From Escherichia coli (GTDB taxonomy: Bacteria > Pseudomonadota > Gammaproteobacteria > Enterobacterales > Enterobacteriaceae): DNA of 64,000 nucleotides. The stretch lies in the NCBI RefSeq assembly GCF_024502345.1, contig NZ_JALDNN010000001.1. One strand, written 5' to 3'. This document shows, piece after piece, positions 23,463 to 23,690 of this stretch. Each line of letters starts with the position of its first letter. The first letter of the stretch is position 1. Made by a program: the position numbers and the translations under genes. Under the pieces are notes generated by a model. That model saw nothing but the letters and a program-made list of their open reading frames with translations, was not told the DNA's origin and searched no databases.

Positions 23463-23576
23463 CGTAACAATCACAATTGAAACCATTGGATAACAATAGT
23501 TGTGGCGATAGTGGGTGCTAACTTACCAAATAATAAATTTGGTGAATAATTGTCGCGTCATTCATTCCTGAACTAA

Positions 23577-23607
23577 GGCATTTCATTCCGTTCTGATGGC
23601 ATTTCAT
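23577..23607 (+). promoter_or_regulatory. Direct repeat GGCATTTCAT-N11-GGCATTTCAT upstream of yhjX; matches the described YpdB (BtsR-like LytTR regulator) binding motif
   Basis: Two identical 10-mers at 23577-23586 and 23598-23607, about 85-115 nt upstream of yhjX start. Confidence 0.55.
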
Positions 23608-23690
23608 GCCGTTTTTCCCCAGGCATAAAGTGCACTTCGTTATGGTTGTCGGCAGAGATTTTTCCTTTTTATTACTGCAGGAATACTGCC

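What the first reader, a model, noticed from the sequence alone, without database searches (positions are those of the whole stretch)
23560..23690. Perfect direct repeat GGCATTTCAT-N11-GGCATTTCAT in the yhjX promoter
Two identical 10-mers spaced one helical turn plus apart lie ~85-115 nt upstream of yhjX. This matches the binding motif reported for the LytTR-type response regulator YpdB (BtsR-related), which activates yhjX in response to pyruvate. The repeats also produce a spurious minus-strand ORF (MKCHQNGMKCL...).
Basis: partly seen in the sequence, partly recalled or inferred. Interest (0 to 1): 0.3.

Follow-up and report, generated by a model that had tools for sequence, protein, structure and literature searches.

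The report
Known YpdB binding site before yhjX
The repeat is the already published DNA site where the pyruvate-responsive E. coli regulator YpdB (now called PyrR) binds to switch on the transporter gene yhjX, so it is real but ordinary.

Summary
GGCATTTCAT occurs exactly twice in the window, at 23577-23586 and 23598-23607. The spacer is 11 nt, and the copies lie 114 to 84 nt before the yhjX ATG at 23691.

Window 23554-23611 matches 58/58 the K-12 PyhjX fragment used for YpdB binding studies (PMC4847170). That paper names these two 10-mers as YpdB sites A and B. K-12 MG1655 is identical to the window from 23496 to the ATG.

The repeat alone is not statistically striking: 83% of shuffled 64-kb windows contain a comparable one. 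The evidence is position, published biochemistry and conservation. All 80 yhjX promoters from other enterobacterial species keep both copies exactly 21 bp apart.

Three refinements:
- The conserved unit is GCATTTCAT[T/G]CC. The first G is variable, and it is T in site A in three sampled E. coli variants.
- A third, equally conserved unit (GTCATTCATTCC, 23557-23568) lies 21 bp upstream of A, inside the published footprint fragment.
- A conserved TAnnnT (TATGGT, 23641-23646) at fixed distance from B is the likely -10 box.

The minus-strand ORF is a by-product of the repeats. ypdAB is not in the window but is present in 5422 of 5426 complete E. coli genomes.

Verdict: already known, low interest.

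The parts
23577..23586 (+). YpdB/PyrR site A (GGCATTTCAT), the published high-affinity site. The conserved register is 23578-23589 (GCATTTCATTCC).
   Evidence: Exact match. Named site A in PMC4847170. Positions 1-12 of the unit carry 1.5-2.0 bits in 80 promoters.
23587..23597 (+). 11-nt spacer TCCGTTCTGAT. Its first 3-5 nt (TCCGT) are conserved and the rest is variable.
   Evidence: The length is invariant in 80 of 80 species.
23598..23607 (+). YpdB/PyrR site B (GGCATTTCAT), the published low-affinity, cooperative site. Conservation continues through GCCGTTTT to 23615.
   Evidence: Named site B in PMC4847170.
23556..23568 (+). Third, upstream unit U (cGTCATTCATTCC), exactly 21 bp upstream of site A. 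It shares the core TTCATTCC with A.
   Evidence: As conserved as A and B: TTCAT is invariant in 80 of 80, and the U-A distance is 21 in 80 of 80. It lies inside the published footprint-derived fragment 23554-23611. A role as a YpdB contact is inferred, not shown.
23554..23611 (+). Stretch identical to the published PyhjX YpdB-binding fragment, which covers all DNase I-protected nucleotides.
   Evidence: 58 of 58 identity to the oligonucleotide in PMC4847170 Table 1.
23641..23646 (+). Predicted -10 hexamer TATGGT. The predicted transcription start is about 23653-23654 (the conserved CA). There is no recognisable -35 (CCCAGG at 23618-23623).
   Evidence: TAnnnT is present in 78 of 80 promoters at 37-38 bp from the site B core. 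The rival hexamer TAAAGT (23627-23632) is not conserved. This is an inference; no transcription start data were found.
23679..23682 (+). Shine-Dalgarno AGGA, 8 nt before the ATG.
   Evidence: Read from the sequence. GCAGGA is conserved.
23691..24893 (+). yhjX, an MFS transporter of 400 aa and the regulated gene.
   Evidence: Pfam MFS_1, E=9.6e-36. Annotated yhjX in E. coli genomes. 8 differences from K-12 YhjX, including the last residues.
23518..23730 (-). 70-codon antisense ORF. It is a by-product of the repeats and not a gene.
   Evidence: Each ATGAAATGCC reads M-K-C, and the 21-bp period keeps the frame. The open frame varies from 20 to 104 codons in other species, with only the GMKC/GMKC/GMND repeats conserved. 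No Pfam hit.

Best explanation

Shown by published work on the identical K-12 sequence: phosphorylated YpdB binds first to the upstream copy (site A, 23577-23586; nanomolar affinity, slow off-rate). This allows a second monomer to bind the downstream copy (site B, 23598-23607; about 10-fold weaker, fast on and off). Mutating A abolishes all binding. Mutating B leaves a single binding event. The authors propose that occupancy of B recruits RNA polymerase and that its fast release gives pulsed expression.

Inferred here:
- The two copies are 21 bp apart, about two helical turns, so the bound proteins face the same side of the DNA.
- Site B sits about 33 bp upstream of a conserved -10 hexamer (TATGGT, 23641-23646) with no usable -35. 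The promoter therefore depends on the activator.
- Transcription would start near 23653-23654, giving a leader of about 37 nt.
- The conserved recognition unit is GCATTTCAT[T/G]CC.
- A third in-phase unit (23556-23568) probably contributes to the complex.
For: - The exact 10-mers and the 11-nt spacer are present.
- Window 23554-23611 is 58/58 identical to the published YpdB-binding fragment. The paper's text names the motif, sites A and B, the binding order and the pyruvate response (PMC4847170).
- The K-12 promoter is identical to the window from 23496 to the ATG.
- The downstream gene is yhjX, an MFS transporter.
- YpdB/PyrR carries Response_reg and LytTR domains and occurs in 5422 of 5426 complete E. 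coli genomes.
- The promoter occurs in 5422 of 5426 genomes, once per genome.
- In 80 species with a yhjX orthologue, both sites are kept at exactly 21 bp with near-invariant cores.
- Independent papers report YpdB-dependent yhjX promoter activity: conserved motifs across genera in PMC5552118, loss of promoter activity in a btsS ypdB mutant in PMC9765748, and 678-fold induction by 3 mM pyruvate in PMC7660256.
Against: - Nothing contradicts it.
- The original footprint paper (Fried et al. 2013, PMC3562098) is not in the library, so the footprint limits are taken second-hand from the 2016 paper.
- The source genome's ypdAB could not be checked, because it is not in the window.
- The transcription start, the -10 box and the geometry relative to RNA polymerase are my predictions.
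- A bare 10-mer repeat of this kind is expected by chance somewhere in 64 kb.
Confidence: 0.95

Rival explanations
1. Refinement rather than replacement: the operator is tripartite. Three 21-bp-phased units (U 23556-23568, A, B) are all contacted by YpdB. U would be a weak third site that fills only after A, or that helps bend the DNA.
For: - U is as conserved as A and B. TTCAT is invariant, and the U-A distance is 21 bp in 80 of 80 promoters.
- U shares the 8-mer TTCATTCC with A.
- The published footprint-derived fragment extends 23 nt upstream of A but only 4 nt past B.
- The authors note that flanking nucleotides affect expression in vivo.
Against: - SPR resolved only two binding modes.
- A fragment with A mutated but U intact bound no YpdB-D53E at all, so U is not an independent site.
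- U differs from the 10-mer at 4 of 10 positions.
- U could instead serve another protein.
Confidence: 0.35
2. The repeat is a chance or slippage-derived duplication with no function.
For: 83% of shuffled 64-kb windows contain an exact 10-mer direct repeat within 40 nt, and the window holds 5 other such events.
Against: - Sequence and spacing are invariant in 80 species while the flanks vary.
- Only 0.55% of shuffles of the 228-nt spacer give such a repeat.
- Binding and mutagenesis have been published on the identical sequence.
Confidence: 0.01
3. The repeats encode a small antisense protein (ORF 23518-23730, minus strand) with a 7-residue GMKC repeat.
For: The ORF exists, with 70 codons and a GTG start. 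The 21-bp period preserves the reading frame.
Against: - The open frame ranges from 20 to 104 codons in other species, with no conserved start or stop.
- Only the residues encoded by the three DNA units are conserved.
- There is no Pfam match.
- The ORF overlaps the yhjX start codon and the core promoter.
Confidence: 0.01
4. The sites are bound by the paralogous LytTR regulator BtsR (YehT) rather than by YpdB.
For: [quoted passage not shown] In uropathogenic E. coli the kinase BtsS signals to YpdB.
Against: - The BtsR motif ACC[G/A]CT[C/T]A, which I recalled from memory and which is consistent with the PyjiY oligonucleotide, is absent from 23463-23690 even with one mismatch.
- PyjiY DNA served as the non-binding reference for YpdB in SPR.
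- The reported cross-talk is between kinase and regulator, not at the DNA.
Confidence: 0.02

Closest known systems
YpdB (PyrR) operator of the E. coli K-12 yhjX promoter (Fried, Behr and Jung 2013; Behr, Heermann and Jung 2016)
   Same: The sequence is identical over the whole published fragment (58/58) and over the whole promoter from 23496 to the ATG. The gene downstream and the synteny (tag-yhjY-yhjX) are the same.
   Different: Nothing in the operator differs. This strain has the lpf fimbrial operon inserted after yhjX, and YhjX ends ...REAHI instead of ...REAHGSL.
General LytTR response-regulator operators (AgrA P2/P3 of Staphylococcus aureus, VirR, PlnC, BtsR at yjiY)
   Same: Two direct repeats of 9-11 nt separated by 11-13 nt, as summarised in PMC4847170. 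They lie upstream of a promoter with a poor -35, and binding is cooperative.
   Different: The recognition sequence is specific to YpdB. Here a third in-phase conserved unit lies upstream. The position relative to the transcription start is only predicted.
BtsR (YehT) operator at yjiY/btsT
   Same: It belongs to the same regulator family and the same pyruvate-sensing network, and it also uses a direct-repeat architecture.
   Different: The motif (ACC[G/A]CT[C/T]A) and the spacer (13 nt) differ. No such motif is present in the yhjX promoter.

Membership tests
YpdB/PyrR operator of PyhjX | Two copies of GGCATTTCAT separated by 11 bp | tested here: met
   23577-23586 and 23598-23607, with spacer TCCGTTCTGAT. 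The motif is as stated in PMC4847170.
YpdB/PyrR operator of PyhjX | Identity with the experimentally protected and bound DNA fragment | tested here: met
   58/58 identity of window 23554-23611 with the published oligonucleotide. K-12 is identical from 23496 to the ATG.
YpdB/PyrR operator of PyhjX | Located in the promoter of yhjX | tested here: met
   84-114 nt upstream of an MFS_1 gene annotated yhjX.
YpdB/PyrR operator of PyhjX | Cognate ypdA-ypdB (pyrS-pyrR) present in the same genome | not testable with these tools
   Not in the window, and no complete genome in the collection matches the window exactly. ypdB is present in 5422 of 5426 complete E. coli genomes.
YpdB/PyrR operator of PyhjX | YpdB binding and pyruvate-dependent activation | not testable with these tools
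   Published for the identical K-12 sequence (PMC4847170, PMC5552118, PMC7660256). Not re-testable in silico.
LytTR-type operator architecture | Direct or inverted repeats of 9-11 nt separated by 11-13 nt | tested here: met
   10-nt repeats with an 11-nt spacer. The criterion is quoted from PMC4847170.
LytTR-type operator architecture | The regulator carries a LytTR DNA-binding domain | tested here: met
   K-12 PyrR: LytTR E=2.4e-34 and Response_reg E=2e-24.
LytTR-type operator architecture | Promoter-proximal repeat adjoins a weak -35 of an activator-dependent promoter | tested here: inconclusive
   A conserved TAnnnT lies at a fixed 37-38 bp from the site B core, and there is no -35 match. 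No experimental transcription start was found.
BtsR (YehT) operator | Direct repeat of ACC[G/A]CT[C/T]A | tested here: not met
   No match with up to 1 mismatch inside 23463-23690.

The most novel reading that the evidence does not exclude
The yhjX control region may be richer than the published two-site model in two ways. First, YpdB may use three 21-bp-phased units (U, A, B), with the true recognition unit being GCATTTCAT[T/G]CC. Second, a separate conserved palindrome, GATAGT-N4-(A/G)CTAAC at 23507-23522, may be the operator of a second, unidentified regulator of yhjX.
Probability: 0.35. Interest if true: 0.3.

Novelty: already known. Interest (0 to 1): 0.1.

Why it matters
It matters little as a discovery. 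The site, its regulator, its signal (extracellular pyruvate) and even the order of binding are published.

It is useful in two ways. It annotates this window: yhjX here should be pyruvate-inducible through YpdB/PyrR exactly as in K-12. It also serves as a positive control showing that the first-stage reader can recognise a real regulatory site.

The comparative data add small refinements that specialists in LytTR regulators could test. These are a shifted 12-nt recognition unit, a third conserved in-phase unit, a likely -10 box and an unassigned upstream palindrome.

Tried and rejected
- The original footprint paper (Fried et al. 2013, PMC3562098) is not held. I relied on the 2016 paper, which reproduces the fragment.
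- The repeat finder did not list the 10-mer pair; it reported an out-of-register 14-mer pair and two weak inverted repeats. The pair was confirmed by direct pattern search instead.
- The consensus promoter scan found only TTACCA-16-AATAAT at 23523-23550, upstream of the operator. That stretch is variable or deleted in other species, so I rejected it as the regulated promoter.
- The candidate -10 box TAAAGT (23627-23632), which would place site B over the -35, was rejected because it is not conserved.
- An Rfam scan of 23400-23800 gave only two chance-level hits at E=0.62.
- No literature record of a transcription start was found.
- No regulator was found for the upstream palindrome in ChIP-exo or SELEX papers that mention yhjX.
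- By eye, I compared the palindrome with the PdhR, sigma-54, OxyR/LysR-type, MarA, ArcA and NtrC consensus sequences recalled from memory. None fits.
- No complete E. coli genome in the collection matches the window end to end, so the strain, and hence its ypdAB, could not be identified.

Full report
**Observation**

Reading 23300-24000 and searching for the pattern shows GGCATTTCAT exactly twice in the 64-kb window. Both copies are on the + strand, at 23577-23586 and 23598-23607. The spacer TCCGTTCTGAT is 11 nt, so the copies are 21 bp apart start to start.

The ATG of the downstream gene is at 23691. The minus-strand ORF 23518-23730 contains GMKCHQNGMKCL. Similarity continues beyond the 10-mers: GGCATTTCAT[T/G]CCGTT[C/T]T matches at 16 of 18 positions.

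**Is it more than chance?**

Not on its own.
- Exact 10-mer direct repeats within 40 nt occur at 6 places in this window.
- 83% of dinucleotide-preserving shuffles contain at least one.
- Restricted to the 228-nt yhjY-yhjX spacer, only 110 of 20000 shuffles (0.55%) give one.

The case for function rests on location, conservation and published experiments.

**Identity of the locus**

The 231-nt spacer is found once per genome in 5422 of 5426 complete E. coli genomes. It always lies upstream of the gene annotated yhjX, described as an MFS or 'L-lactate MFS' transporter. The protein matches Pfam MFS_1. The gene order is bisC-yiaC-tag-yhjY-yhjX.

K-12 MG1655 is identical to the window from 23496 to the ATG. 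The only differences are three substitutions further upstream.

**Comparison with the published site**

A full-text search for the 10-mer found Behr, Heermann and Jung 2016 (PMC4847170).
[quoted passage not shown] Without its G/C clamps it equals window 23554-23611, 58 of 58.
- It says YpdA senses extracellular pyruvate and that yhjX is YpdB's only direct target.
- The phosphomimetic YpdB-D53E binds A with a KD of about 1 nM and a slow off-rate, and B with about 21 nM and fast on and off rates.
- Mutating A abolishes all binding. Mutating B leaves one binding event. This is the 'AB-BA' model.

Other papers agree:
- YpdB motifs are conserved in Citrobacter and Enterobacter, and the system is absent from Salmonella (PMC5552118).
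- yhjX promoter activity is lost in a btsS ypdB mutant (PMC9765748).
- yhjX is induced 678-fold by 3 mM pyruvate under 'PyrSR' (PMC7660256).

The original paper, Fried et al. 2013, is not held.

**The regulator**

In current K-12 RefSeq annotation, ypdA and ypdB are called pyrS and pyrR. PyrR has Response_reg and LytTR domains. Its gene is present in 5422 of 5426 complete E. coli genomes but not in this window. No genome in the collection matches the window end to end.

**Conservation**

A scan of one genome per species for YhjX relatives returned 80 loci. They come from Escherichia, Citrobacter, Enterobacter, Buttiauxella, Kluyvera, Lelliottia, Kosakonia and other genera, at 84-98% protein identity.
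- Every one has two copies of the motif, with up to 3 mismatches each, at exactly 21 bp.
- In an alignment of 80 distinct promoters the A-B distance is 21 in all 80.
- Information content shows that the conserved register is positions 1-12 of each unit, GCATTTCAT[T/G]CC, at 1.5-2.0 bits.
- Position 0, the first G of the 10-mer, is weak: G53/T27 in site A and T45/G28 in site B.

Within E. coli, 3599 of 5395 genomes match the 62-nt operator exactly and 1796 match at 95-99%. The three variants I sampled (MS6198, AVS0456, SBF22) all carry G to T at 23577, which makes site A TGCATTTCAT.

**A third unit**

Exactly 21 bp upstream of A lies cGTCATTCATTCC (23556-23568).
- Its TTCAT core is invariant, and its distance to A is 21 in 80 of 80 promoters.
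- It shares TTCATTCC with A.
- It lies inside the footprint-derived fragment, which extends 23 nt upstream of A but only 4 nt past B.
- It is not an independent site, because YpdB-D53E did not bind when A alone was mutated.

Its role, whether as a cooperative third contact, a bending element or a site for another protein, is inferred and untested.

**Core promoter (inference)**

The distance from the site B core to TATGGT (23641-23646) is 37-38 bp in all 80 promoters. 78 of the 80 keep TAnnnT there. All length variation lies further downstream, in the leader.
- The alternative hexamer TAAAGT (23627-23632) is not conserved.
- No -35 match exists at the right distance. CCCAGG sits there, and the consensus scan finds nothing. 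This fits an activator-dependent promoter.
- The conserved CA at 23653-23654 is the likely start, giving a leader of about 37 nt. Site centres would then fall near -93, -72 and -51.
- I found no experimental start site.

**Antisense ORF**

Each ATGAAATGCC reads M-K-C on the minus strand, and the 21-bp period preserves the frame. In other species the open frame varies from 20 to 104 codons, and only the GMKC/GMKC/GMND residues are kept. It has no Pfam match. It is a by-product of the repeats.

**Rivals**

Chance, an antisense gene and BtsR binding are each contradicted. The BtsR motif is absent. Details are in the rival-explanation entries.

**Verdict**

The element is the known YpdB/PyrR operator of yhjX. 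Novelty: already known. Interest: low. The small additions (shifted recognition unit, third unit, -10 prediction, upstream palindrome) are leads for specialists and not a new kind of system.

Noticed in passing
window 23507-23522: There is a conserved imperfect palindrome, GATAGT-N4-GCTAAC (ACTAAC in most species), about 55 bp upstream of site A. Its flanks are near-invariant in most of the 80 species while the surrounding sequence and its distance to the operator vary. It occurs only once in the window. No known regulator or literature record was found, so it may be the operator of a second factor.
   Followed up: partly
L083 3090-4010 (E. coli DX6, NZ_CP126345.1), equivalent to window 23597-23605: An IS1 element is inserted inside YpdB site B, with a 9-bp target duplication TGGCATTTC. 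It separates site A from site B and the core promoter. This is a natural operator disruption that should uncouple yhjX from pyruvate control.
   Followed up: partly
window 24880-30700 (lpfA from 25226/25236): The long polar fimbriae operon (lpfA1-B-C-D-E by comparison with strain 100416) lies between yhjX and eptB, where K-12 has nothing. The junction alters the end of yhjX: the protein ends ...REAHI (400 aa) instead of K-12's ...REAHGSL (402 aa).
   Followed up: partly
window 25123-25152: An exact 12-mer direct repeat, TATTATTCGTAT, occurs twice at 17-bp spacing in the AT-rich region about 75-100 nt upstream of lpfA. It may be a regulatory repeat or may simply reflect AT-rich composition.
   Followed up: no
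window 23577 and 23556, compared with L082, L085 and L086: The three sampled E. coli genomes whose 62-nt operator differs from the window carry G to T at the first base of site A and C to A at the first base of unit U. This fits the low information content of that position across species. 1796 of 5395 genomes fall in the 95-99% identity band.
   Followed up: partly
window 23631-23657: The block GCACTTCGTTAT.GTTGTCGGCAGAG is strongly conserved beyond what a -10 box alone needs. It could include a discriminator, the start site and early-leader signals. Post-transcriptional control of yhjX has been proposed in the literature, according to my recollection, which I did not check.
   Followed up: no
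window 2231-2274, 37898-37935, 50824-50851, 55657-55682: Four other exact 10-11-nt direct repeats lie within 40 nt of each other in the window. This number is only slightly above the shuffle expectation, and I did not examine them.
   Followed up: no
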